DNA of 37,573 nt from Desulfonema limicola (GTDB lineage: Bacteria; Desulfobacterota; Desulfobacteria; Desulfobacterales; DYRC01), in the NCBI GenBank assembly GCA_020718925.1, contig DYRC01000004.1, positions 2,235 to 39,807 on the forward strand, in the 5' to 3' direction. Made by a program: the position numbers and the translations under genes. Positions 3,618 through 22,459 of this stretch are shown here, piece by piece; within the stretch, counting starts at the first letter, position 1; every line of letters starts with the position of its first letter. The notes below the pieces were generated by a model. The model saw nothing but the letters and a program-made list of their open reading frames with translations, did no database searches and was not told the DNA's origin.

Positions 3618-5306
3618 ATGACAGAACAAGACGACATAGCAGATAGCAAAGAAATTGCGGCCGCTGAAAAAATCATCTCCGCGCTGCTGATAGCGGTTAA
3701 AAATTCGGCACTTTATCCCGAACACCATGAGAGTTATCTTAAATCCGTTGAAAATCTCAGATTGCTGTTTGCCGAATTTTTCAAAGTTTGTGAGTATCTG
3801 AGATGGTATGTGGAAAAAGACCATCTGATATTCAAAGGTCAGGTCATCCGGCATGATGGGGAAAACCTCTCATCTGTCTTGTTTCGGGATGGCATCCGGT
3901 GGATAGAAATCAGAAAAGGCATCGAATCTGATGAAATCACGGGCTTTCTGAAAATTCTCAAAGACTACCGGGTGTTGAGCGATAACGCGGACGGCGATCT
4001 GGCAACCGCATTATGGGAGGCAAATTTTTCTCATATTCTGTATGAGGCAGAAGACGCTTTTCGGAATGCTGACCCGATTGATGCGGCGATGCTGATGGGG
4101 ATGCCAGAGGGTATGCCTGAAACAACGCCGGACAAAGAAAACCATGATCCCGAATACGTCCATGCGCCGCAAGAAGCCCCGACTCATGCGCCCCTGCCAT
4201 TATCCGCTGATCTGTGGCAGCTCAGTTCACAGGAAACGCTTGAACTTCAGCGAATGGTCATCAAAGAGGAAAATGACGTCAAAACCAAAGATGTGCTGGA
4301 TATACTGCTGATTATCCTTAAAGAACAGCATAGCGAACAGGAATTTTCAAACATTCTTGACTTTATCAAAGACGAATTTCGGCAAAGCCTGATGCAGTGC
4401 GAGTTTGAATTGGCGCATCTGATGCTCGGACGGATGCAGGAATTTAAGCGGGTCTGCCAATCTGAAAGTCAGTCAAAAGCGTCATTGCTTCAGAATTTTT
4501 TTACTGCGGTATCAGGCGTCGAAGTCTTGGGGGTGCTTTATAAAGTTCGTCCTGCGCTGGAGATTGCCAATCCCGAAAGGATCAGAGCATTTCGTAAAAT
4601 GTTCAATTTTTTACGCCCCGAAGCAACTATATCGCTCGCGCCCATGGTTGCTGTCATCAAAAATCCGCAACTGCGCCGTGCGGTCATGGAAATTATCGGG
4701 GCTTTGGCAAGCAAGGACATCCGCCCTTTGGAAAAACTTCTGGAAAGTTCGGAAGAAGAGCTGGTTCATCGTCTGGTGTTTATCATGGGAAAGCTCAAAG
4801 GTAAAAAAATCGGTGAGTTATTGCTGAAAATGATCGGGCATCCTTCGGAAGCTGTTCGCAGAGAAGCTTTAAATTCGCTGATGTCAGGAGACAATGAGTC
4901 TGTGAGCCTGCTGTTTACACTGCTTGACAATGACTCTGAAATGATTCGTGAGATGGTTTCAGAACATCTGTATCGGAAAAAATACCCGGATATTGAGGAG
5001 CAGATGTTGGATTATCTTGAACATCGCCGCTTCAGATATAAAGAGCAGAAGCATATTTCAGCCTGCTATAAGATATTGGGGCGAAGCGGTTCTTCAAAAT
5101 CCCTTGTTTTTTTGGAAAAAGTATTGTTTGATAAACCCTGGGCGTCTTTACTCGGCATTGAAAACGCTTATGAACGGGATGGCGCGGCAGCGGCATTAGC
5201 CGAAATGGGAACAGAAGAAGCCAACAGCCTTCTTGCCAGAGCTTCCCGAAATCCGTTCCCTGCTGTGCGGCGGGCATATAAAAAAGCAACTGAGGACATC
5301 GTATGA
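3618..5306 (+). CDS. HEAT-repeat protein whose N-terminal module is paralogous to that of the downstream HD-GYP protein
   Basis: Starts 1 nt after the cbiK stop. The C-terminal half has HEAT/PBS-lyase-like repeats (HPSEAVRREALNSL.., NDSEMIREMV.., NPFPAVRRAYKKA). Confidence 0.7.
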   Translation: MTEQDDIADSKEIAAAEKIISALLIAVKNSALYPEHHESYLKSVENLRLLFAEFFKVCEYLRWYVEKDHLIFKGQVIRHDGENLSSVLFRDGIRWIEIRKGIESDEITGFLKILKDYRVLSDNADGDLATALWEANFSHILYEAEDAFRNADPIDAAMLMGMPEGMPETTPDKENHDPEYVHAPQEAPTHAPLPLSADLWQLSSQETLELQRMVIKEENDVKTKDVLDILLIILKEQHSEQEFSNILDFIKDEFRQSLMQCEFELAHLMLGRMQEFKRVCQSESQSKASLLQNFFTAVSGVEVLGVLYKVRPALEIANPERIRAFRKMFNFLRPEATISLAPMVAVIKNPQLRRAVMEIIGALASKDIRPLEKLLESSEEELVHRLVFIMGKLKGKKIGELLLKMIGHPSEAVRREALNSLMSGDNESVSLLFTLLDNDSEMIREMVSEHLYRKKYPDIEEQMLDYLEHRRFRYKEQKHISACYKILGRSGSSKSLVFLEKVLFDKPWASLLGIENAYERDGAAAALAEMGTEEANSLLARASRNPFPAVRRAYKKATEDIV

Positions 5307-8436: not shown

Positions 8437-8481
8437 AATCCTTTAATCCTTATAAAATCCTTCAATCCTGATTCAGACAAT
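8416..8481 (+). repeat. Small palindromic repeat, copy B, with GATTCAGACAAT tail
   Basis: GACGGATTGAAGGAT..ATCCTTATAAAATCCTTCAATCCTGATTCAGACAAT. Same orientation as copy A. Confidence 0.75.
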
Positions 8482-10949: not shown

Positions 10950-12244
10950 AAACCGGAGAACCGCATATTCTGCTGATTAATCCGTGGATTCATGATTTTG
11001 CCGCGTATGATTTCTGGGCAAAACCTATCGGATTGCTGTATCTGGCGGCTATGTTGGAGCAGCACGGTGTTGACGTCAGTTTTATCAATTGCCTGAATCG
11101 TTTTCATCCCAAAGCGCGTCCGTCTGATCCTCATGCCCGGTACGGACGGGGACATTATCTGAAAACCCGAATCCCCAAACCCCAAGGATTAGATGATATT
11201 CCCCGATATTTTTCGCGCTACGGCATCAGAGAAGAATGGTTCAGGGAAGATTTGCAGGCTCTGCCGACACCGGATCTGATTCTTGTAACGTCTCTGATGA
11301 CATACTGGTATCCGGGAGTTCGGGATGTCATAAGCATTTTGCGCGAATATTTTCCGAATACGCCGGTCATTCTGGGCGGAATTTATGCCACGCTCTGCAC
11401 GGATCACGCCCGAAAATATTGCGGCGCGGATAAAGTCATTACCGGAGCCGGGGAAAAGCAGCTATTTGATGTTGTGGCAGAATACTGCGACTTTTCCATA
11501 ACGCCCCAGTATGACCCGGATGATTTGAATTGCCTTCCCTATCCGGCATTTCATCTTGAAAACGTCATATCATATATTCCGATTCTGACCTCAAGAGGCT
11601 GCCCGTTTTCCTGCGCGTATTGTGCTTCGCGGATATTGGAGCCGAAGCTCCGGCGCAGAAATCCTGAAAACGTGGCAGAGGAAATTCTCTTCTGGCATAA
11701 AAAACACGGCGTGAAGAATTTTGCATTTTATGACGATGCGCTGCTTACAGACCCGGAGCATCACGCAATTCCCCTGCTGGAAAAGATTATCGCTTCCGAC
11801 ATCAAAGTCTTTTTTCATACGCCGAATGCGCTGCATATCCGGGAAATATCGCCATACATTGCAAAGCTGATGTTTGACGCGGGATTTGAAACCATCCGGC
11901 TTGGGCTTGAAACCACCGAATTTGAAGACAGAAAAGAATTGGATAGAAAAGTAACCGAATCTCAATTCAGACAGGCGGTTTCATATCTTAAAGCCGCCGG
12001 TTTCAGAAAAGAGCAGATCGGCGCGTATCTGCTGACCGGTCTGCCGGGGCAGTCATTGGAATCTGTGGAAAGGTCTGTCAGAACCGTCAGAGAAAGCGGT
12101 ATCGAACCTGCGTTGGCGCAATATACGCCGATTCCTCATACCGCATTATGGAAAAAAGCTGTGGCGTGTTCGCGCTATGATCTTGAAGCTGATCCGATTT
12201 TTACCAATAATTCAATATTGCCATGCAGTTCTGTCATATCCTGA
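10946..12244 (+). CDS. Class B (B12-binding-domain-like) radical SAM protein
   Basis: ATGA overlap with the upstream gene. N-terminal Rossmann-like ILLINPW..PIGLLYLAAML; CxxxCxxC cluster motif SRGCPFSCAYCAS. Confidence 0.85.
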   Translation: MKTGEPHILLINPWIHDFAAYDFWAKPIGLLYLAAMLEQHGVDVSFINCLNRFHPKARPSDPHARYGRGHYLKTRIPKPQGLDDIPRYFSRYGIREEWFREDLQALPTPDLILVTSLMTYWYPGVRDVISILREYFPNTPVILGGIYATLCTDHARKYCGADKVITGAGEKQLFDVVAEYCDFSITPQYDPDDLNCLPYPAFHLENVISYIPILTSRGCPFSCAYCASRILEPKLRRRNPENVAEEILFWHKKHGVKNFAFYDDALLTDPEHHAIPLLEKIIASDIKVFFHTPNALHIREISPYIAKLMFDAGFETIRLGLETTEFEDRKELDRKVTESQFRQAVSYLKAAGFRKEQIGAYLLTGLPGQSLESVERSVRTVRESGIEPALAQYTPIPHTALWKKAVACSRYDLEADPIFTNNSILPCSSVIS

Positions 12245-12262
12245 AATCCCGATTCAGACAAT
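12238..12262 (+). repeat. Partial copy of the small-repeat right arm (ATCCTGAAATCCCGATTCAGACAAT)
   Basis: Compare ATCCTTCAATCCTGATTCAGACAAT at 8457-8481. The 12-mer GATTCAGACAAT is identical. This copy overlaps the radical SAM stop codon. Confidence 0.5.
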
Positions 12263-12422
12263 CAGTTAAGGGTAAGCACAGGGGCTTACCCCCATTGCCA
12301 TTAAGTTAAGACAGGAATCAGAAATTAAGGTCAATAACTATTTTCCTGCAAGCTTTTGAAAAATACATTATACTTATTTGATTAGATTTGCTTACACGTA
12401 GTTGTTTTCATAAAAACAGTTC

Positions 12423-12451
12423 TTGCATTTTTATAACGGCGGATATATAAA
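12423..12451 (+). promoter_or_regulatory. Predicted sigma70-type promoter for the island's first operon
   Basis: TTGCAT (12423-12428), 17-nt spacer, TATAAA (12446-12451). Confidence 0.35.
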
Positions 12452-12470
12452 CTGAACTATTTGATGAAGG

Positions 12471-12511
12471 TTTTCCGGCTATCATGTCAAAATCACATGA
12501 TAGCCGGAAAA
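12471..12511. promoter_or_regulatory. Perfect 17-bp inverted repeat (operator or 5'-UTR hairpin)
   Basis: TTTTCCGGCTATCATGT-caaaatc-ACATGATAGCCGGAAAA. It sits between the predicted promoter and the ATG at 12568. No downstream T-run on either strand, so it is not a canonical terminator. Confidence 0.5.
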
Positions 12512-12567
12512 AAACTGTTCAATCACTGGTTATGCCTCTTGGTCAATAATGCGCTTTAGGAAACACT

Positions 12568-13110
12568 ATGACAAAAGATAAGTTTGAAGAATTCATAAGC
12601 AAACAGAAGAAGAAATCGTCTTCTATTGAGATTGATTGGGATATACAACGATCTGAATGGCTTCAGCATTTAGACCTGTTCTATGAGTCAATTGAACTCT
12701 TTCTCAAACCATACACAGAGAACAAGACAATCGAACTCTCTTTTGGAACAAAGAAAATTATTGAGGAGTACATCGGCGAGTACGAAGCAAAAACGGCTCA
12801 AATTACGATTGGAATCAACAGGATAAAACTTGATCCTATTGGCACAAATCTGATCGGAGCCAAAGGACGAGTTGATTTAATTGGACCGAACGGGAAGATA
12901 AAGTTTGTTCTTGTGAACGAGTCTGCTTCAGCACCGAAAATATCCGGAAGAGTTTGGATTCAAGGAGAAGAACCGCCTACAAATGAAGAAGAGCAGCCTA
13001 AAGTTATTTCGTGGGTTTGGCGCATAGCAACCCCACCGCCAAAAATCAAGTATTTTCCTCTTGAGAAAGAATCCTTCCTTGACGCATTAATGGAAGTTTC
13101 AAATGGCTGA
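12568..13110 (+). CDS. Hypothetical 180-aa protein, upstream partner of the HEPN-like protein
   Basis: AGGAAA RBS 6 nt upstream. AT-rich: 35% GC in a 60-nt spot count at 12601-12660, versus 57% at 12001-12060. No TM segment and no motif recognised. Confidence 0.65.
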   Translation: MTKDKFEEFISKQKKKSSSIEIDWDIQRSEWLQHLDLFYESIELFLKPYTENKTIELSFGTKKIIEEYIGEYEAKTAQITIGINRIKLDPIGTNLIGAKGRVDLIGPNGKIKFVLVNESASAPKISGRVWIQGEEPPTNEEEQPKVISWVWRIATPPPKIKYFPLEKESFLDALMEVSNG

Positions 13111-13636
13111 AAAAGTCACCTTCTCAGGGCAGCATCTTGACTTATCCGAGATAACCGAGCATTACACAGATGTTGAACTGTCACTTCGACAACTATTTTC
13201 GTCTGCACTGGATAATGAAGAGCGATTTGCTGGGTATAGCCCGACTGAGGTTGCAGAAGAACTCGAATATAGACTAGCAGAAGAAGGAAATCTGGTAGCT
13301 CTTTCCATTTTGGCAGCGATAGAGGCGGCATTTAGGGTTGATTATCTTCAAAGAGTCTACGCAAAGAAGAAAGACCCTCTTTCAAGAGCTTTCCGCGAGC
13401 TACATGAGATCAAAGGATCTAGAGCATCGCTTGAAGACGAGATATTCAATACTTGGCTAAAATACACCAATGTACAGCCCCAGCTTATAGGCAATCTACG
13501 AGGCGCCTTCAAGTTTCGTCACTGGCTTGCTCATGGTCGCTACTGGAAACCTAAGCTTGGTCAGCGCTATGACTATCATGGCGTTTACACTTTAGCTGAA
13601 GGTGTATTCAGATCGCTGCCTTTGCTGACAAATTAG
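13103..13636 (+). CDS. HEPN-like putative RNase (Rx4H motif)
   Basis: 8-nt overlap (ATGGCTGA) with the upstream gene. All-helical-looking sequence with KFR139HWLAH144GRYW (nt 13517-13534), matching the HEPN R-x4-H catalytic signature. Size (177 aa) is typical of single-domain HEPN toxins. Confidence 0.55.
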   Translation: MAEKVTFSGQHLDLSEITEHYTDVELSLRQLFSSALDNEERFAGYSPTEVAEELEYRLAEEGNLVALSILAAIEAAFRVDYLQRVYAKKKDPLSRAFRELHEIKGSRASLEDEIFNTWLKYTNVQPQLIGNLRGAFKFRHWLAHGRYWKPKLGQRYDYHGVYTLAEGVFRSLPLLTN

Positions 13637-13705
13637 GCATAACCCATCATTCAACACGGACTGGCGCGATAAAGCCTCGCCAGCCGGTTAATTCAGACGT
13701 TAGGA
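13637..13705 (+). repeat. attC-like imperfect palindrome immediately after the HEPN-like gene
   Basis: GCATAAC...CGGACTGGCG-cgataaagcct-CGCCAGCCGG...GTTAGGA. The ends approximate RYYYAAC and GTTRRRY. The stem has bulged bases. 69 nt long. Confidence 0.3.
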
Positions 13706-13772
13706 TTTTAATAAATTCTGCTGACAACTTAACATACTGTTGCACCTGACAAAAACAGGTGAAGTAATATAG

Positions 13773-14237
13773 ATGGAATCGGTATATATTGAGACATCCG
13801 TTCTGAGCTATCTTACGGCACGACCGAGCCGGAATCTTATAGCGGCTGCAAGACAGAGAATTACAACAGAATGGTGGGATAAGCAGAACTATCGGATTTT
13901 CACCTCGAATGTTGTGATTGCCGAATCAGGTCAGGGTGATACGGAATGTTCACAGTTGAGACTGGGCATAATAAAGGATATTCCGAGACTTGCAATCACG
14001 CCTGAATGTCATCGGTTAGCCGAAAAACTCATTGCCGACTGTGTGCTGCCTGAAAATGCTCAGGATGACGCATTACATATTGCCGTATCAAGCTGTCATT
14101 ATACAGATTTTCTTCTGACTTGGAATTGCAGGCATCTGGCAAATGCACATATCATCCCGAAAATAAGGAAACTTATTGAGTCGGAAGGATATAAGTTTTC
14201 ACAGATATGCACACCGGAGGAGCTGATCGGAGAATAA
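13773..14237 (+). CDS. PIN-domain toxin (VapC-like)
   Basis: Acidic residues in PIN positions: YIETSVL (N-terminal), ..AESGQGD.., QDDALHIAV, LLTWNCRHLAN. 154 aa. Confidence 0.75.
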   Translation: MESVYIETSVLSYLTARPSRNLIAAARQRITTEWWDKQNYRIFTSNVVIAESGQGDTECSQLRLGIIKDIPRLAITPECHRLAEKLIADCVLPENAQDDALHIAVSSCHYTDFLLTWNCRHLANAHIIPKIRKLIESEGYKFSQICTPEELIGE

Positions 14238-14238
14238 T

Positions 14239-14457
14239 ATGGAAAACGTTATCAGAGATGAAATAATCGAAGAATTATGGCAGATAAAGGACAGGTTCTC
14301 ATTTTCCTGCAACAGAAATATCGGAGAGCTTATAAAAAAAATGAACGCCATAGCGGAAGAGTTGAATTTTGCAGAAAAAAAAATGACCGGGCAGTCTGAC
14401 CGGGTCGTTGTACCTGACGGAGTTGGATGCCAGCAGGTGAACTTGCCGTTAGGATAA
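14239..14457 (+). CDS. Small partner protein of the PIN toxin (putative antitoxin, downstream position)
   Basis: Starts 1 nt after the PIN stop. N-terminal RDEIIEELWQIKDRFSFSCNRNIGELIKKMN looks like the small helical partners often found beside this PIN subtype. The C-terminal tail may be non-native. Confidence 0.45.
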   Translation: MENVIRDEIIEELWQIKDRFSFSCNRNIGELIKKMNAIAEELNFAEKKMTGQSDRVVVPDGVGCQQVNLPLG

Positions 14458-14479
14458 GTGATACGGTATTTCACGGAAT

Positions 14480-14529
14480 TCCTAACCCTCAGTTGCAGCC
14501 GATTACAACGGCTGAACATTGTGTTATAA
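14480..14529 (+). repeat. Second attC-like imperfect palindrome
   Basis: TCCTAAC-CCTCAGTTGCAGCCG-attacaa-CGGCTGAACATTGT-GTTATAA, with a bulged G in the stem. An extra GTTAGGA sits at 14448-14454, at the stop codon of the small gene. Confidence 0.3.
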
Positions 14530-14690
14530 TTCCGATGTCCGATTCCGCGCTCTCGACAAACTGCCCGCCCCCCACGCCTTCTCAGACTCATTTATAATCA
14601 TCAGACATCATTGTTTTTCAGACAATTTCTTAACTTAATGACATTGGGGCTTACCCTACATATTATGCCGGAAAGTATATGATTGGGTAT

Positions 14691-15734
14691 TTACTCATTC
14701 CACGAAAACAGCACCGCAGCCAATGCCAGAAAAATAGCCGTTGTCAGCAGCATCGCCGTGATTTCAGGCATGAGATTCATCAGCCCCGCGCCATCGTTCA
14801 TGATTTTCCGAACAGATCGCGTCAGGTGAATCAGAGGGAAAAAATCAGCAACTGTTTTCACCCACTGAGGTGAACCCTCTAAAGAAAACCAGACTTCGGA
14901 TAAAAACATCATGGGCCACGAGATGAAATTGATCAGCCCGCTTGAAAATTCTTCGCTCGTGCCTCTGGCAGCCAGCATCAAGCCCATCGCGCACATGCTT
15001 AAACTTCCCAGAAAAAATACGAGGACAATATTGCCGTAAGACCCTTCGACCTTGAAATGGAAAATCGCATCACAGCCTATCCATACCACGATCACCATAA
15101 ACATCATCAGAACAATTCTGGAGAGCAGTTGTGCGCTTAAATATTCAAATGCCGTCAGAGGCGTGGCTTTGAGACGTTTTAAGACGCCGATTTTCCGATA
15201 CCGCACAATGATATAGCCCACGCCCCACAATGCCCCGAACATGATGTTCATGCCCAGAACGCCCGGAAAAAGCCATTCCACATAGCGGATCGGCACTGCC
15301 CGGATTTCCTGCTTCTGCGCGGGCGGCGGTTCGGAATACAGGCTGGCATGAAACAGCTTTTCCACAAGATAGCCTTTGGGCGAGGTATCGCTGACCCAAT
15401 AATCATTGGTCGGCGAATCTGCTTTAATCAGAAAATCAATCGCGTGATGCCGAAGCTTTTCCACGCCTTCGCTCAATGTTTTAACGCCGATGAACTGAAT
15501 CAGGCGGGTTTGTCTGAACGCTTTGGGAATACTGAGTTTTTCAACTATCACGATTTCCGTATCCGAAGGAAATACGCCGACCTTAAATTCATTATATTCC
15601 TTGCCCCCGAAAATAACCCCGAATCCGACAACGATCAGAAACGGAAACAGAAAATTCCAGCCCAATGCGCTGCTGTCTCTGAAAAACTCCTTGTTTCGGG
15701 CAACAAACATCACCCAGAATCGTTTGAAACTCAT
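14691..15734 (-). CDS. ABC-2 type transporter permease
   Basis: N-terminal RNKEFFRDSSALGWNFLFPFL, a large extracytoplasmic loop, then five C-terminal TM segments. Directly downstream of the ABC ATPase. Confidence 0.85.
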   Translation of the reverse strand: MSFKRFWVMFVARNKEFFRDSSALGWNFLFPFLIVVGFGVIFGGKEYNEFKVGVFPSDTEIVIVEKLSIPKAFRQTRLIQFIGVKTLSEGVEKLRHHAIDFLIKADSPTNDYWVSDTSPKGYLVEKLFHASLYSEPPPAQKQEIRAVPIRYVEWLFPGVLGMNIMFGALWGVGYIIVRYRKIGVLKRLKATPLTAFEYLSAQLLSRIVLMMFMVIVVWIGCDAIFHFKVEGSYGNIVLVFFLGSLSMCAMGLMLAARGTSEEFSSGLINFISWPMMFLSEVWFSLEGSPQWVKTVADFFPLIHLTRSVRKIMNDGAGLMNLMPEITAMLLTTAIFLALAAVLFSWNE

Positions 15735-19666: not shown

Positions 19667-20514
19667 ACAGCCGGATATGTGTCGGAATTATCGGCGGAAA
19701 AGGCGCAATGGGTCGCTGGTTTGAGCATTTTTTTACTCAGAGCGGGCATAAGGTTCTGATTTCGGATTTGCAGACGATGTTCACCCCGAAACTTCTCGCA
19801 AGGATTTGTGATATTGTTATTATCAGCGTTCCTTTGGATATTGCGCCTGAAATTGCAAAAGCCATCGGTCCCCGAATGAGCGGGAATCAATTATTGACCG
19901 ACATCTGCTCGCTCAAAGAAGATATTCTAAATGCCATGATGAATCATACAAAAGCCGAGGTGGTCGGAACTCATCCGCTTTTCGGTCCTTTTGTCGAATC
20001 TTTTCATGGGCAGAATATGGTGATTTGTCCGGGCAGGGGTGAAAGATGGCTCAGTTGGCTCAAAGATGAATTTGAAAAAAGCGGCGCAAACATCATCAGC
20101 ACGGACGCTGCGACACATGACAGAAATATGGCTATTTTTCAAGGGCTTACGCATATACTCAGCGTCAGTATCGGCAGAATGTTTCAAAAGATAAACATGC
20201 GCCCTGCTGAAGCAATTTCTCAATCCACGCCGGTATTCAGGGTTCATACGGATCTGGTGGGGCGGCTGTTTGCTCAGGATTTGGGGCTTTATGAGCGGCT
20301 TATCGGTCAGAATAAATATGTGGGCGAAGTTCTGAATATCTTTTTGTCTGCGTTGAATGAAAGCCGGGAAAATCTGCTTTCGGGTGAAATTGGAAAAAGC
20401 AGTGAATATTTGGAACAAATCCGCTCTTTTCTCGGTGATTTCTGCCAAAAAGGGCTTGAAGAAAGCAATGAGTTTCTGAATATATTTTATTCCAAAATGA
20501 AAGGATCGGCATAA
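19663..20514 (+). CDS. tyrA: Prephenate dehydrogenase
   Basis: ATGA overlap with aroC. NAD fold ICVGIIGGKGAMGRWF; ..VVGTHPLFGP..; HDRNMAIFQGLTH. Confidence 0.85.
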   Translation: MNSRICVGIIGGKGAMGRWFEHFFTQSGHKVLISDLQTMFTPKLLARICDIVIISVPLDIAPEIAKAIGPRMSGNQLLTDICSLKEDILNAMMNHTKAEVVGTHPLFGPFVESFHGQNMVICPGRGERWLSWLKDEFEKSGANIISTDAATHDRNMAIFQGLTHILSVSIGRMFQKINMRPAEAISQSTPVFRVHTDLVGRLFAQDLGLYERLIGQNKYVGEVLNIFLSALNESRENLLSGEIGKSSEYLEQIRSFLGDFCQKGLEESNEFLNIFYSKMKGSA

Positions 20515-21770
20515 TGGATAACAAACTCAATCTTTTTGCCTTAACCTTAAAGAACTATAAAAATATAGTTGCTGATGGGATCGGATTAAATAATCTGAAT
20601 GTCATTATCGGACCAAATGGTTCGGGGAAAAGTAATTTTATCGGTGTTCTTCGGTTTTTAAAAGATTGTCTGATTTCTACACCTGATAAAAGTGGGGGGA
20701 TTACCAGTTTTGAAGAAGCTATTGAAAAGCTCGGCGGTAAAAGGATATTAGACAAAACGGTTGCATCGCATGAATCTGTTAATTTAGGTTTTATCTTCAA
20801 ACTTTCTGAAGGAAAAATTTTATTTTTTGATTTGGATATTTGGGAAGATATTATATCTGAGGAGAGTCTTTATTCACCGGGTATTGCAGGAACAGACAAG
20901 TTCTGTTTTTATAAAGTTAATATTGATTTTGATAAAGGATGCGATGTATCAGTTTATAATGATTCTACTCAAAAGGAAAGTCATATTGAAACATTATCAG
21001 ATATTCCTAATAATCAACTAATGCTAAGTATGATTCCTGAACTGTTAGAGTCAAGTAAGTTTTCCCCTGAAAATACACCTGTTTACAAAGTGCGGCGAAA
21101 AATTATTGATTCGGTATCAGGATGGCGGTTTTATAATGCCAATGATATGAATGTAACTGCTATCCGTGTTTCAGAACCGAAAATCGGTCCCGGCGATATG
21201 TTTCTTGAGCCTTCAGGAGAAAATCTGCCTTTGGTCTTGGATAATCTGATTCAGAAAGATTTTGAATTTGAAGAAAGAATCAATAATGCCATGAAGCAGA
21301 TTTTGCCTCAGACAAGAAAAATCAGACCGATACGTTTAGGGCGATTAGCGTTGACGGTGGAATGGTATTTTGACGGCATGAAAGAGCCGTTTTACTTAGA
21401 TGAAATGTCAGACGGCACGGTGAGAATGTTATGCTGGGCAGTTATTCTGCATTCTCCTATTCCGCCTTCTCTGCTGGTTATTGACGAGCCGGAAATGGGT
21501 ATTCATCCGTCATGGTTGCCGATTTTGGCGGAATGGATAAAGACCGCTTCTGAAAGAACGCAGATTATTGTCAGCACACACAGCCCTGATTTGCTGGATC
21601 ATTTTACGGACAGAACAGAAGACGTGATTTGTTTTCGCTTTGACGGAAAAAATCATTTTACACCTGAGCATTTGTCAAGGGAAAAACTTTCGGCAATGTT
21701 TAATGAAGGATGGGAGTTGGGAGATTTATATCGTGTCGGTGATCCGGGAGTCGGAGGCTGGCCATGGTAG
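20514..21770 (+). CDS. ABC/SMC-type AAA ATPase (AAA_15/AAA_21-like), candidate defence ATPase
   Basis: TAATG overlap with the tyrA stop. Walker A GPNGSGKSN; ABC-signature-like MSDGTVRML; Walker B LLVIDEPEMGIHP; H-loop VSTHSPDLL. AT-rich: 30% GC in a spot count at 20521-20580, versus 48% at 19681-19740. Confidence 0.85.
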   Translation: MDNKLNLFALTLKNYKNIVADGIGLNNLNVIIGPNGSGKSNFIGVLRFLKDCLISTPDKSGGITSFEEAIEKLGGKRILDKTVASHESVNLGFIFKLSEGKILFFDLDIWEDIISEESLYSPGIAGTDKFCFYKVNIDFDKGCDVSVYNDSTQKESHIETLSDIPNNQLMLSMIPELLESSKFSPENTPVYKVRRKIIDSVSGWRFYNANDMNVTAIRVSEPKIGPGDMFLEPSGENLPLVLDNLIQKDFEFEERINNAMKQILPQTRKIRPIRLGRLALTVEWYFDGMKEPFYLDEMSDGTVRMLCWAVILHSPIPPSLLVIDEPEMGIHPSWLPILAEWIKTASERTQIIVSTHSPDLLDHFTDRTEDVICFRFDGKNHFTPEHLSREKLSAMFNEGWELGDLYRVGDPGVGGWPW

Positions 21771-22459
21771 TTTGGGTATTTGCAGGCGGCGGAGAATCTG
21801 AGATAAAAGGGCTTATTCTGTTTTTCCGAAAAAGTTTCTCTGATTGTCAGTTTGAGCGAAAGACTCCGATCAATAATAAAAAAGCCCCTAATCCCAAAAA
21901 AGCACTCGGCAAGACCGGAAAAAGTCTTGCCGACCAGATCAGTTGGCAATTGAATAACTCTCTGAGAGATAATGAAAAATGTGATTTAATCCTTGTCATT
22001 GACGATTTGGATTGCCGAGATGTAGAGCAGCAAAACCAACTATTTCTGAAAGCGATCAACATCGTGAAAGAAGCATCTGAGATAAAACAGATTATCGCCT
22101 TTGCCGCGCCGGAATTAGAATCATGGATTGTTGCAGATTGGCAGAATACTTTTGCAAAACATATTGATTTCAGAGGATTCCATCAAGGGATGCGGCATTG
22201 GCTGAGTACAAAAAATTTTCCTTTTGATGCGCCTGAATCCTTCAGCGAATATGATTCAGACAAAGATAGCTGCAAAGAAAAACTTTCCGAACTGATTATC
22301 GAAGCGGTATCTGAAAAAGCTCAGAAAAGATATTCAAAAGCAAGTCATACGCCGTTTCTGCTTCAACAAGTCAATCCTGAAAATGTTGTGGAAAAATGCC
22401 CTTTATTCAGAGAATTGTATCTGACTTTCAATAATTTATTCAAATCAGAGAGTTTATGA
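21764..22459 (+). CDS. Toprim-like protein resembling the DUF4276/RloB/DUF4435 group
   Basis: 7-nt overlap with the ATPase gene. N-terminal VFAGGGESEIKG (Toprim-type Glu); DLILVIDDLDCRD (DxD); AAPELESWIVADW (E.W motif). The assignment rests on the motif pattern only. Confidence 0.6.
   Translation: MVVWVFAGGGESEIKGLILFFRKSFSDCQFERKTPINNKKAPNPKKALGKTGKSLADQISWQLNNSLRDNEKCDLILVIDDLDCRDVEQQNQLFLKAINIVKEASEIKQIIAFAAPELESWIVADWQNTFAKHIDFRGFHQGMRHWLSTKNFPFDAPESFSEYDSDKDSCKEKLSELIIEAVSEKAQKRYSKASHTPFLLQQVNPENVVEKCPLFRELYLTFNNLFKSESL

What the first reader, a model, noticed from the sequence alone, without database searches (positions are those of the whole stretch)
12251..14656. Four accessory genes enclosed by 22-nt inverted repeats with flanking CTTAC / GGGGCTTACCC direct repeat, and no recombinase
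**Seen in sequence**
- CCCCATTGCCATTAAGTTAAGA (12290-12311) and TCTTAACTTAATGACATTGGGG (14628-14649) are inverted repeats matching 20/22.
- CTTAC directly abuts both ends, as a 5-bp target-site duplication would.
- Read another way, the 11-mer GGGGCTTACCC occurs at both junctions (12281-12291 and 14646-14656).
- The left copy of that 11-mer also forms a hairpin with GGGTAAGC (12270-12277).
- TTCAGACAAT occurs just before GTTAAG at the left (12253-12270) and just before its complement CTTAAC at the right (14617-14634).
- The segment lies between convergent core genes (radical SAM and ABC-2 permease).

**Inference, three alternatives**
- It may be a non-autonomous transposon- or MITE-like vehicle carrying toxin modules.
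- It may be a segment delimited by site-specific recombination or inversion sites.
- It may be cargo inserted into a REP-like terminator palindrome.
Basis: seen in the sequence. Interest (0 to 1): 0.65.

Follow-up and report, generated by a model that had tools for sequence, protein, structure and literature searches.

The report
Transposase-less insertion cassette carrying integron cassettes
The four genes sit in a 2.35-kb hitch-hiking transposon that keeps only the two ends of an IS4-family insertion sequence, and its payload is two swappable integron-type gene cassettes encoding toxin-like proteins, which points to a route by which such genes move without carrying their own enzymes.

Summary
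A 19-22-nt inverted repeat (12293-12311 / 14628-14646) brackets four genes and is flanked by the direct 11-mer GGGGCTTACCC.

**Outer layer.** The repeat is the terminal inverted repeat of an IS4-family insertion sequence group with IS231-type ends.
- The same 19-mer occurs as inward-facing pairs in many unrelated metagenomes.
- These pairs enclose 86-200-nt MITEs, 1.4-1.7-kb elements encoding an IS4-family DDE transposase, and cargo-carrying elements.
- Clear pairs have 9-10-bp target duplications.
- The 11-mer fits the published 11-bp GGGNNNNNCCC target duplication of IS231A.

The segment is therefore a transposase-less mobile insertion cassette (MIC), lodged in a repeated hairpin between convergent genes.

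**Inner layer.** The payload is two integron-type gene cassettes, a HEPN pair and a PIN/VapC pair, each ending in an attC-like site.
- The same vehicle at another locus carries a restriction-modification system.
- A sister strain has a different second cassette at this locus.
- Cassette 1 recurs elsewhere, bounded exactly at the G|TT cores.
- Its homologue lies in a complete integron beside intI.

No transposase or integrase is in the window. Action in trans is inferred, not shown.

The parts
12270..12291 (.). REP-like hairpin GGGTAAGC-ACAG-GGGCTTACCC in the spacer between convergent genes. This is the inferred insertion target.
   Evidence: Sequence. The stretch 12270-12311 is multi-copy, about 7-13x the single-copy depth. 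A homologous hairpin is split by the sister element in L125.
12281..12291 (.). Left copy of the target-site duplication GGGGCTTACCC. It is a 10-mer, GGGCTTACCC at 12282-12291, if the end is taken as C-A. One extra C at 12292 lies in a C-run whose length varies between strains.
   Evidence: It fits the IS231A entry in PMC2577343 Table 1 (11 bp, GGGNNNNNCCC).
12293..12311 (+). Left terminal inverted repeat CATTGCCATTAAGTTAAGA.
   Evidence: It matches 8 of 8 consensus positions of the IS231-subgroup end CAT-------AA--TAA (PMC2266710 Table 1).
12312..12529 (+). Non-coding left arm of the vehicle. It holds a perfect 17-bp hairpin at 12471-12511 and ends in the core GTTATGC (12529-12535), where cargo begins.
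   Evidence: It is conserved in L125 (77% over 12316-12532) and L149 (98%). Homology in three variants ends at 12532, after GTTA.
12530..13699 (+). Cassette 1, containing O1, O2 and attC1, delimited by the G|TT rule.
   Evidence: L148 shares 90.5% identity over exactly 12529-13701 and has another attC1-like copy immediately upstream. A homologous gene pair lies in a complete integron in Rubrivivax.
12568..13110 (+). O1, 180 aa, function unknown. It overlaps O2 by 8 nt and is the presumed partner of the HEPN protein.
   Evidence: No Pfam, NCBIfam or PADLOC hit. The family has 1082 representative clusters. The model is confident (pLDDT 92) but has no PDB fold match.
13103..13636 (+). O2, 177 aa, a HEPN-type protein with the Rx4H motif RHWLAH. 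Putative RNase toxin.
   Evidence: Sequence. It has 359 homologues, one of which a source names RiboL-PSP-HEPN and another DUF86.
13637..13705 (+). attC1-like site: GCATAAC ... imperfect palindrome with bulges ... GTTAGGA.
   Evidence: Copies recur in L148 (twice) and L149. Sequences of sister strains diverge right after GTTA at 13702. Loose ends cluster at 13640/41 and 13702/03.
13700..14523 (+). Cassette 2, containing O3, O4 and attC2.
   Evidence: It is missing or replaced in the sister strain. Depth there is about 0-5 against flanks of 43-72, and L149 diverges after attC1.
13773..14237 (+). O3, 154 aa, a PIN-domain (VapC-family) putative toxin.
   Evidence: Weak Pfam PIN match. It has 6173 homologues, many with PF01850 or named as VapC family toxin.
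14239..14457 (+). O4, 72 aa, a small partner of the PIN protein and putative antitoxin.
   Evidence: A PIN gene followed by a 56-58-aa ORF is a conserved pair in L140 and L146. Function is inferred.
14480..14529 (+). attC2-like site ('R49'): TCCTAAC-CCTCA-GTTGCAGCC-loop-GGCTGAAC-ATTGT-GTTATAA. It is a very high-copy repeat.
   Evidence: It folds with an R-box stem, a 5/5 unpaired spacer, and an L stem with one extrahelical base (z = -5.3). Nominal depth is 156-274x single copy, and copy homology is limited to 14477/82-14526/27. L125 sites keep the same boxes around a different centre.
14524..14627 (+). Non-coding right arm of the vehicle.
   Evidence: It is 94.6% identical in L125 over 14511-14655. 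Depth is about 5-17x.
14628..14646 (-). Right terminal inverted repeat CAATGTCATTAAGTTAAGA, read on the - strand.
14646..14656 (.). Right copy of the target-site duplication GGGGCTTACCC. The 10-mer version is 14647-14656.
   Evidence: Depth returns to single copy just beyond 14656.

Best explanation
Window 12293-14646 is a non-autonomous IS4-family element, a mobile insertion cassette (MIC).

**Anatomy**
- It keeps two 19-nt terminal inverted repeats of IS231 type, a 218-nt left arm and a 104-nt right arm. It has no transposase gene.
- It lies in the 3' arm of a repeated hairpin between the convergent radical-SAM and ABC-2 permease genes, flanked by a 10-11-bp duplication, GGGGCTTACCC.

**Movement of the whole unit (inferred)**
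- It would move by cut-and-paste, using a cognate DDE transposase encoded elsewhere.

**Payload**
- The payload is a short integron-type cassette array without an integrase (a CALIN).
- Cassette 1 is the unknown protein O1 plus the HEPN protein O2. Cassette 2 is the PIN/VapC protein O3 plus the small partner O4. Each ends in an attC-like site.
- Cassettes are exchanged at the G|TT cores, presumably by an integron integrase acting in trans.

**Shown versus inferred**
- Shown: the anatomy, the family of the ends, the duplication, the same vehicle with other cargo at another site, and cassette-level differences with exact boundaries.
- Inferred: which transposase and which integrase act, that the element is still mobile, and that the gene pairs work as toxin-antitoxin or defence modules.
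For: **1. The ends belong to an IS family.**
- The 19-mer CAATG[T/C]CATTAAGTTAAGA occurs in 39 metagenome loci. In 16 of these (L103, L104, L106, L109-L111, L114, L119, L120, L125, L126, L131, L133-L135, L138) it is present as an inward-facing pair.
- Pairs 1400-1662 nt apart (L111, L120, L126) each enclose one ORF that matches PF01609 and NCBIfam NF033592, IS4 family transposase (E = 5e-42 to 2e-49). These ORFs carry the Y-2-R-3-E-6-K motif.
- Conservation starts sharply at C1-A2.
- The ends fit the IS231-subgroup signature and its 10-12-bp direct repeat.
- Annotated relatives have similar ends: an IS4-family IS on a Desulfosarcina BuS5 plasmid, and ISPa1635.

**2. Target duplications.**
- Duplications of 9-10 bp abut the ends in L109, L111, L114 and L126.
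- Here the 11-mer GGGGCTTACCC fits the IS231A entry: 11 bp, GGGNNNNNCCC.

**3. No recombinase nearby.** No transposase or integrase lies in the element or in any large ORF of the window.

**4. Same vehicle, other cargo, other site.**
- L125 shares the right arm at 94.6% and the left arm at 77%.
- It carries an HNH endonuclease, two C5 methylases and an FG-GAP protein.

**5. The cargo behaves as integron-type cassettes.**
- attC2 has an attC-type fold, matching the features described in PMC5027507.
- Its nominal copy number is 156-274x, with homology confined to the site itself.
- L148 shares only 12529-13701 and has an attC1-like copy just upstream.
- L149, a sister strain at the same locus, diverges right after attC1. 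This agrees with depths in the sister population: flanks 43-72, O1-O2 11-19, O3-O4 about 0-5.
- The O1-O2 homologue pair lies in a complete integron about 3 kb from an integron integrase (NF011946, 499 bits).
- The O3-O4 homologue pair lies in a co-oriented array of small ORFs in Desulfonema limicola.
Against: - **No autonomous partner shown.** No IS with these ends was found in the same genome. Reads gave only a 402-nt contig at about genome depth, similar to the conserved catalytic part of a transposase gene.
- **No empty site.** None was found in any run or relative.
- **The flanking repeat is shared by most copies.** In this genome most copies of the end abut the same hairpin and GGGCTTACC. 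The direct repeat could therefore partly belong to a larger repeat unit, rather than reflect extreme target preference.
- **L125 has no duplication.** The sister element splits the hairpin without a visible duplication.
- **One-base ambiguity.** The boundary between duplication and end is uncertain by one base.
- **The attC-like cores deviate from consensus.** TCCTAAC/GTTATAA differ from RYYYAAC/GTTRRRY, only one extrahelical base is predicted, and it is a C, not a G, on the bottom strand.
- **No curated attC model.** None could be run. My own crude scan was no better than shuffles in the window: 11 hits against 11.1 expected.
- **No intI shown.** None was found for this genome.
Confidence: 0.75

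Rival explanations
1. The repeats are ordinary REP/BIME-like intergenic palindromes, with a terminator or structural role. They happen to flank resident genes, and nothing moves as a unit.
For: - The hairpin plus the 22-mer is multi-copy in the genome.
- It sits between convergent genes.
- No recombinase is nearby.
Against: - The same 19-mer bounds transposase genes and MITEs with duplications in unrelated organisms.
- Conservation starts at C-A, as in IS4 ends.
- The same arms and repeats enclose different cargo at another locus.
- The two flanking 11-mers are identical.
Confidence: 0.05
2. Two independent solo ends or MITEs inserted on either side of pre-existing genes, making a fortuitous composite and not a single element.
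For: - Many copies of the end exist in the genome.
- The left and right arms have different copy numbers, about 1x against 5-17x.
- L092 shows a contig that switches to another copy of the right end.
Against: - The ends face inward as one element should, and the identical 11-mer abuts both outer ends.
- L125 has the same left-arm and right-arm combination around different genes at a different site.
- The interior consists wholly of vehicle arms plus cassettes. No core gene is enclosed.
Confidence: 0.08
3. The inverted repeats are crossover sites of a site-specific recombinase, so the segment inverts or excises, like an invertible or shufflon-type module.
For: The repeats are inverted and bracket a discrete segment.
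Against: - Contigs of eight runs show no inversion or excision joint at the repeats.
- The repeats are IS4-type ends associated with DDE transposases elsewhere.
- Flanking direct repeats are not expected for inversion.
Confidence: 0.02
4. The outer MIC reading holds, but the inner modules are not integron cassettes. They are swapped by homologous recombination between dispersed structured repeats, such as REP-like or terminator hairpins that merely resemble attC.
For: - The cores deviate from the attC consensus, and no intI was found for this genome.
- My crude attC scan was unspecific.
- The Desulfonema limicola arrays examined show no intI within 10 kb.
Against: - Module limits fall at the G|TT(A) position in four independent comparisons.
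- The site has an R stem, an unpaired spacer, and an L stem with a bulge around a variable centre.
- Copies keep the boxes but change the centre.
- The O1-O2 homologue is a cassette in a complete integron with intI.
- Genes are co-oriented, each followed by a site.
Confidence: 0.1

Closest known systems
MIC231 / IS231 mobile insertion cassettes of the Bacillus cereus group (Chen 1999; De Palmenaer 2004; as summarised in PMC6199540 and PMC2266710)
   Same: - Two IS-type inverted repeats, no transposase, and one or more passenger genes.
- Size within 0.7-3 kb.
- Ends fit CAT-------AA--TAA.
- The direct repeat is 10-12 bp, and the target fits GGGNNNNNCCC.
- A conserved non-coding region lies next to the left end.
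   Different: - The host is a Desulfobacterales bacterium, not a Firmicute.
- The cognate transposase is unidentified.
- Subgroup membership of the related transposases was not tested.
- The passenger DNA is organised as integron-type cassettes with attC-like sites. The sources read here do not report this for MIC231.
ISPa1635, and an unnamed IS4-family IS on the Desulfosarcina sp. BuS5 plasmid NZ_CP087953.1
   Same: - Their ends are close to the window's: CAATGTCATCAACTT... in ISPa1635 and CAATATCATTAACTTAAGG in the BuS5 IS.
- Each has a single DDE_Tnp_1 transposase, 38-50% identical to the transposase found between exact-match ends in L111.
   Different: These are autonomous elements of 1.5-1.6 kb without cargo. 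Their ends differ from the window's at 3-4 of 19 positions.
CALIN, a cluster of attC sites lacking an integron integrase, and integron gene cassettes (Cury 2016, PMC4889954)
   Same: - Co-oriented genes, each followed by an imperfect-palindrome site with AAC...GTT cores.
- Cassette limits at G|TT.
- The same cassette appears in different arrays.
- Toxin-antitoxin cargo is typical of chromosomal integrons.
- No intI is nearby.
   Different: - The array is only two cassettes long.
- It sits inside a transposable vehicle with IS ends.
- The first cassette follows a vehicle arm ending in GTTATGC, not a recognised attI or attC.
- The cores are off-consensus.
MITE-flanked class 1 integrons and the integron mobilization unit (IMU) (Gillings 2009; Poirel 2009; reviewed in PMC3575428)
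   Same: Cassette arrays are made transposable by flanking non-autonomous inverted-repeat elements that need a transposase in trans. A duplication flanks the whole structure.
   Different: - Those are composites of two complete MITE copies (288-439 bp) around an integron that still has an intI, intact or defective.
- Here a single element has one pair of ends and no integrase.
- The cargo is toxin-like or defence genes, not resistance genes.

Membership tests
Mobile insertion cassette (MIC) | Two terminal inverted repeats of the kind carried by an insertion sequence family | tested here: met
   The same 19-mer bounds IS4-family transposase genes in L111, L120 and L126. It matches the window at 17/19 and 19/19 positions.
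Mobile insertion cassette (MIC) | No transposase gene between the repeats; one or more unrelated coding sequences instead | tested here: met
   There are four ORFs. None has a transposase or recombinase match in Pfam, NCBIfam or PADLOC.
Mobile insertion cassette (MIC) | Target-site duplication of the length made by the parent IS family | tested here: met
   A 10-11-bp direct repeat abuts both ends. IS4-family duplications are about 10 bp, and 10-12 bp in the IS231 subgroup. The boundary is ambiguous by 1 nt, and the repeat lies in a repeated hairpin.
Mobile insertion cassette (MIC) | Mobilised in trans by the transposase of a cognate IS present in the cell | tested here: inconclusive
   Reads of the same-strain metagenomes contain a contig at genome-like depth that resembles only the conserved catalytic part of such a gene. 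No full element was linked to this genome. Activity cannot be tested here.
IS231 subgroup of the IS4 family | End signature CAT-------AA--TAA--- and a direct repeat of 10-12 bp | tested here: met
   The left end matches 8/8 consensus positions and the right end 7/8. The direct repeat is 10-11 bp.
IS231 subgroup of the IS4 family | Target motif GGGNNNNNCCC (IS231A) | tested here: met
   GGGGCTTACCC reads as GGG-GCTTA-CCC. Other family members found here have other duplications, for example AGTAAGCAGT in L111.
IS231 subgroup of the IS4 family | Transposase clusters with IS231 transposases (YREK motif; many pairs above 50% identity within the subgroup) | not tested
   The YREK motif is present in the L111, L120 and L126 proteins, and they match NF033592. 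No IS231 protein was available for comparison, so only 'IS4 family with IS231-type ends' is claimed.
Integron gene cassette / CALIN | attC site at the 3' end: R''/R' cores (RYYYAAC / GTTRRRY), L''/L' stem with extrahelical base(s), unpaired central spacer, variable terminal structure | tested here: inconclusive
   attC2 folds with all these parts (features as described in PMC5027507). However, the cores match only 5-6 of 7 positions and there is one bulged base. attC1 is weaker (z = -2.2). No curated attC covariance model was available, and my own scan was unspecific.
Integron gene cassette / CALIN | Cassette limits at the G|TT of the cores; the same cassette found in different arrays | tested here: met
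   L148 shares exactly 12529-13701. L149 and L125 diverge after GTTA. Read joints fall at 12532 and 14526/27.
Integron gene cassette / CALIN | Relatives of the cargo occur as cassettes in complete integrons with intI | tested here: met
   In Rubrivivax benzoatilyticus L160/L161, the homologue pair lies in a co-oriented array divergent from an integron integrase (NF011946, 499 bits against a cut-off of 435).
Integron gene cassette / CALIN | At least two attC sites close together with no intI nearby (CALIN, in the sense of Cury 2016) | tested here: met
   There are two sites 775 nt apart. No integrase lies in any large ORF of the 37.5-kb window. This depends on the sites being accepted as attC.
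Tn3-family derived element (TIME), considered because of the 5-bp CTTAC reading | About 38-bp ends of the form GGGG...ACGYTAAG and a 5-bp duplication | tested here: not met
   The ends are 19 nt and start with CA. Family members have 9-10-bp duplications and DDE_Tnp_1 transposases. The Tn3 end consensus is recalled from memory.

The most novel reading that the evidence does not exclude
The vehicle is a transposable, enzyme-free cassette platform. Its left arm ends in an acceptor core (GTTATGC) that an integron integrase uses like an attI or attC site. Cassettes from a very large chromosomal pool (the R49-type site has well over 100 nominal copies) would be loaded onto IS231-type MICs. An IS4-family transposase would then scatter them into a repeated hairpin around the genome. 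This would be a two-enzyme, both-in-trans route that shuffles toxin-antitoxin, restriction-modification and other defence cassettes in large Desulfobacterales genomes.
Probability: 0.3. Interest if true: 0.7.

Novelty: new variant of a known kind. Interest (0 to 1): 0.55.

Why it matters
- **Extends a known class.** Mobile insertion cassettes are documented mainly for IS231 in the Bacillus cereus group and for a few resistance genes. Here the same type of end occurs widely in metagenomes and in a sulfate-reducer lineage.
- **A combination not found in the papers read here.** The passenger DNA is organised as exchangeable integron-type cassettes, without either enzyme on board.
- **A possible origin for CALINs.** If general, this gives a concrete origin for some clusters of attC sites that lack an integrase.
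- **A route for accessory genes.** It would also be a way for toxin-antitoxin and restriction-modification cassettes to leave sedentary arrays and spread within and between genomes.
- **A practical annotation rule.** Pairs of CAATG[T/C]CATTAAGTTAAGA with 9-11-bp duplications mark such elements.

Tried and rejected
- **Rfam** on 12000-15000 at a permissive threshold gave only chance-level hits.
- **PADLOC and NCBIfam** found nothing for the four proteins, and Pfam gave only a weak PIN match.
- **Genome collection scan** with the radical-SAM protein: the nearest species are only 55-64% identical, and synteny ends at that gene. No empty site could be compared.
- **Contig ends at the inner edge of the right repeat** (L087-L089) first looked like population heterogeneity. 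I rejected this once the repeat proved multi-copy, because assembly graphs break there anyway.
- **5-bp CTTAC duplication and a Tn3-like reading** were rejected on the end logo and on the duplications of other family members.
- **IHF-site reading of CATTAAGTTAAG** (a remembered similarity to the IS10 outside end) was not pursued. The paired-end evidence explains the conservation.
- **An 'attC0' in the left arm** (12440-12535): only the AAC/GTT triplets pair, so I do not claim it.
- **My own regular-expression attC scan** recovered the proposed sites, but its hit rate in the window equalled that of shuffles. It carries no weight.
- **Covariance model of the sites** was not built. Too few independent copies were in hand, and the Desulfonema limicola sites did not align convincingly.
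- **Fold search of O1** against the PDB gave no significant match.
- **Sequence search of O1 and O2** against the PDB gave nothing.

Full report
**1. The observation**

- The 22-mer CCCCATTGCCATTAAGTTAAGA lies at 12290-12311. Its inverted partner lies at 14628-14649 with two mismatches. There is no other copy in the 37.5-kb window, and none is expected by chance.
- The repeat finder extends the arms to 29 nt at 83% complementarity.
- GGGGCTTACCC occurs only at 12281 and 14646.
- TTCAGACAAT occurs at 12253 and 14617, and also at 8472.
- Between the repeats lie four co-oriented ORFs: O1 12568-13110, O2 13103-13636, O3 13773-14237 and O4 14239-14457. The flanks are the 3' ends of a B12-binding radical-SAM gene and an ABC-2 permease gene, which converge.
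- G+C in the segment is somewhat lower than in the flanks, 0.34-0.46 against 0.46-0.50.

**2. Where the window comes from**

- The radical-SAM protein is at most 64% identical to proteins of Desulfobacterales species representatives. Synteny with them stops at this gene, so they give no empty site.
- The identical locus, with all four genes, is present in three NCBI MAGs and two JGI metagenomes.
- It is also in public runs labelled biofilm, soil, cave and microbial-mat metagenome.
- The closest named relatives of the cargo proteins are Desulfobacteraceae and Desulfonema limicola.

**3. The inverted repeat is a multi-copy sequence**

- I laid the contigs of same-strain runs on the region. The stretch 12270-12311 (hairpin plus repeat) has about 7-13 times the single-copy depth.
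- The stretch 14629-14655 has a nominal 15-24 times. Depth returns to single copy just beyond 14656.
- Summed contig depth overcounts where short contigs overlap, so these figures are orders of magnitude only.
- This explains why three assemblies break exactly at the inner edge of the right repeat.

**4. What the repeat is**

- One scan of the metagenome collection used a degenerate pattern built on the repeat. It returned 39 loci from very different environments.
- Three bases that the pattern did not specify were nevertheless conserved.
- With up to three mismatches allowed, the 19-mer CAATG[T/C]CATTAAGTTAAGA occurs as inward-facing pairs in 16 of these loci.
- Spacings fall into classes:
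  - 86-203 nt, which is MITE size;
  - 1400-1662 nt;
  - larger, including 1835 nt, 6017 nt, and 2354 nt in the window.
- Elements in L111, L120 and L126 each contain one ORF of 383-456 aa. A fourth element of this size, in L131, holds only a truncated 218-aa ORF with the same motif. The three full-length ORFs match Pfam DDE_Tnp_1 and NCBIfam NF033592 'IS4 family transposase' (E = 5e-42 to 2e-49) and carry the Y-2-R-3-E-6-K motif.
- A logo of 50 distinct copies shows conservation beginning abruptly at C1-A2, with variable sequence outside.
- Clear duplications of 9-10 bp abut the ends in L109, L111, L114 and L126.
- In the IS4-family survey of De Palmenaer et al. (PMC2266710, Table 1), the IS231 subgroup is defined by three features: ends CAT-------AA--TAA---, direct repeats of 10-12 bp, and a size range stretched to 5.4 kb by passenger DNA.
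- The window's left end fits all eight consensus positions. The right end fits seven.
- Annotated relatives with similar ends are an IS4-family IS on a Desulfosarcina sp. BuS5 plasmid and ISPa1635.
- Desulfonema limicola carries a 460-aa DDE_Tnp_1 IS with ends CATACGTGTTAAGTTAAGA and a 10-bp duplication.

**5. The flanking direct repeat**

- If the end starts at C-A, the duplication is GGGCTTACCC (12282-12291 and 14647-14656).
- One extra C at 12292 lies in a C-run whose length differs between strains.
- A published table lists IS231A with an 11-bp duplication and the target motif GGGNNNNNCCC (PMC2577343, Table 1, citing Hallet 1994). The 11-mer reads as GGG-GCTTA-CCC.
- The 5-bp CTTAC reading is therefore rejected.
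- The duplicated sequence is the 3' arm of the hairpin GGGTAAGC-ACAG-GGGCTTACCC.
- Caveat: most copies of the end in this genome abut the same hairpin. In L125, a homologous hairpin is split by the sister element without a visible duplication.
- I read this as strong preference for a repeated, REP-like target. I cannot exclude that part of the hairpin travels with the repeat.

**6. The element is a mobile insertion cassette**

- By the definition quoted in PMC6199540, a MIC has two inverted repeats, no transposase, one or more coding sequences, a size of 0.7-3 kb, a conserved region next to the left end, and mobilisation in trans by the IS231 transposase. The segment 12293-14646 fits this definition.
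- No transposase or integrase is encoded in it, nor in any large ORF of the window.
- Decisive support comes from L125, a mat-metagenome contig:
  - the same ends;
  - the same right arm, 94.6% identical over 14511-14655;
  - the same left arm, 77% identical over 12316-12532;
  - 5.4 kb of different genes: an HNH endonuclease with two C5 DNA methylases, and an FG-GAP repeat protein;
  - a different genomic site.
- A minor contig in same-strain runs joins 12532 directly to 14482. That is a vehicle-like copy without the four genes.

**7. The payload is organised as integron-type cassettes**

The intergenic pieces inside the element are themselves repeats with sharply defined limits.
- **attC2-like site (14480-14529).**
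  - Nominal depth is 156-274 times single copy.
  - Copy homology begins at 14477-14483 and ends at 14526/27.
  - The flanks are diverse.
  - Its sequence is TCCTAAC-CCTCA-GTTGCAGCC-loop-GGCTGAAC-ATTGT-GTTATAA.
  - As single-stranded DNA it folds into an outer stem including TAAC/GTTA, a 5/5 unpaired spacer, and an inner stem with one bulged base (z = -5.3).
  - This is the attC architecture described in PMC5027507: R boxes RYYYAAC/GTTRRRY, extrahelical bases near L'', an unpaired central spacer and a variable terminal structure.
  - The bulge lies on the arm expected for the bottom strand given the gene orientation, but the base is C, not G. The cores match the consensus at only 5-6 of 7 positions.
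- **Sites in L125.** Two sites keep the same boxes around different central parts.
- **attC1-like site (13637-13705).** A second, more divergent site follows O2.
- **Cassette limits by the G|TT rule.** Cassette 1 is 12530-13699 and cassette 2 is 13700-14523.

Comparative evidence for these limits:
- **L148.** This is an unrelated contig with a type IV CRISPR-Cas locus and no copy of the IS ends. It shares 90.5% identity with the window over exactly 12529-13701. It has another attC1-like copy immediately upstream, ending in the same GTTATGC.
- **L149.** This is a sister strain at the same chromosomal locus. Its flank is 94.8% identical, and its left arm and cassette 1 are 98.1% identical. It diverges immediately after the GTTA of attC1 into a different gene.
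- **Depths in the sister population** agree with this: flanks 43-72, O1-O2 11-19, O3-O4 about 0-5.
- **The left arm** ends at the same GTTA in the window, in L125 and in the joined contigs.
- **Rubrivivax benzoatilyticus.** A homologous O1-O2 pair (O2 54% identical) lies in a co-oriented array about 3 kb from a divergently transcribed integron integrase (NF011946, 499 bits against a cut-off of 435; TIGR02249, 451 bits). That is a complete integron.
- **Desulfonema limicola.** The O3-O4 homologue pair lies in one of at least five long co-oriented arrays. These hold small toxin-antitoxin, restriction-modification and immunity genes with repeated AAC...GTT sites, group II introns and IS4-family elements. 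No intI lies within 10 kb of the stretches seen.

**8. The cargo**

- **O3** is a PIN-domain protein of the VapC family, with 6173 homologues.
- **O4** is its conserved small downstream partner.
- **O2** is a HEPN-type protein with an Rx4H motif. One source names a homologue RiboL-PSP-HEPN.
- **O1** belongs to an unannotated family of about 180-aa proteins with 1082 representative clusters. Its model is confident (pLDDT 92): two N-terminal helices, a beta sheet and a C-terminal helix. It has no significant PDB match.
- That these are toxin-antitoxin or defence pairs is inference from family membership and gene order.

**9. Mechanism, with what is shown and what is inferred**

- **Shown:**
  - the anatomy;
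  - the IS family of the ends;
  - the duplication;
  - reuse of the same vehicle with other cargo at another site;
  - cassette replacement at this locus between close strains;
  - recurrence of cassette 1 with exact limits;
  - the integron context of its homologue.
- **Inferred:**
  - a cognate IS4-family transposase encoded elsewhere moves the whole 2.35-kb unit by cut-and-paste into GGGN5CCC sites, preferentially a repeated hairpin;
  - an integron integrase encoded elsewhere exchanges cassettes at the G|TT cores;
  - transcription may start in the left arm, where TTGCAT-17-TATAAA at 12423-12451 is visible in the sequence but was not scored by the scan.
- The only hint of a partner transposase in the same samples is a 402-nt contig at about genome depth. 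It resembles the conserved catalytic region.

**10. Comparison with what is known, and novelty**

- The outer layer is a new member of a known kind, the MIC231-type mobile insertion cassette, in a new host lineage.
- The combination with an integrase-less cassette array has known analogues: MITE-flanked class 1 integrons and the integron mobilization unit (PMC3575428), and CALINs (PMC4889954).
- It differs from these in three ways: it is a single element with one pair of ends, it has no intI at all, and it carries toxin-like or restriction-modification cassettes.
- A search of the library for Desulfonema together with integron found nothing relevant.
- I rate it a new variant of a known kind, of moderate interest.

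Noticed in passing
window 20514-22459: A two-gene insertion lies between the prephenate dehydrogenase and lpxK genes. It encodes an AAA_21-type ATPase (418 aa) and a DUF4276 protein (231 aa). Both match the PADLOC candidate defence system HEC-01 (HEC-01A E = 1e-50; HEC-01B E = 4.5e-6).
   Followed up: partly
window 8464-8481 and 12245-12262; also 14617-14626: An 18-mer, AATCCYGATTCAGACAAT, occurs downstream of the DEAD-box helicase gene and again just after the radical-SAM stop codon (17/18 identical). Its last 10 nt also recur inside the right arm, next to the right end. This may be the relic of an older element end or a separate small repeat. It is unexplained.
   Followed up: partly
L092 (GCA_974336975.1 contig), 3835-3900: In this MAG the contig runs from the four genes through the right arm into a different, full copy of the end plus hairpin, and then into an alpha-amylase gene instead of ABC-2. 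The ABC-2 side is on another contig (L086). This is either an assembly switch through the repeated right arm or a real rearrangement between element copies.
   Followed up: partly
L149 135-273 and L125 6192-6384 (window equivalent 12318/12321): The mat-strain copies of the left arm carry an extra 139-190 nt with two small hairpins, just inside the left end. The window's copy lacks this. It may be a nested small insertion, or a deletion in the window's lineage.
   Followed up: no
L135 2469-4303: The same IS4-type ends enclose a 516-aa ORF with RRXRR and HNH domains (IscB-like), not a DDE transposase. No flanking duplication is visible.
   Followed up: no
L148 1-5200: The contig that carries cassette 1 without the IS ends also holds a type IV CRISPR-Cas locus (Csf1, Csf3, Cas6/Csf5, a DinG-like helicase, Cas1-like, Cas2). 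It includes a CRISPR array with the repeat GTCTTCCCCGCTCATTGCGGGGGTTGAAGG.
   Followed up: no
L146/L155-L159 (Desulfonema limicola CP061799.1): A 914-nt unit encoding an 89-aa and a 79-aa protein is repeated in tandem three or four times. It recurs at five or more chromosomal loci, inside co-oriented arrays of small genes. Group II introns and IS4-family elements are inserted next to structured repeats.
   Followed up: partly
window 14481-14527, in run X13: One contig of the sister-strain metagenome goes back 47 nt (14527 to 14481). This is two attC2-type sites in direct tandem with nothing between them.
   Followed up: no
window 12568-13110 (O1): O1 belongs to a sizeable unannotated protein family (invariant G70, P90, R101, W151). 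Its predicted fold is confident but has no significant match among solved structures.
   Followed up: partly
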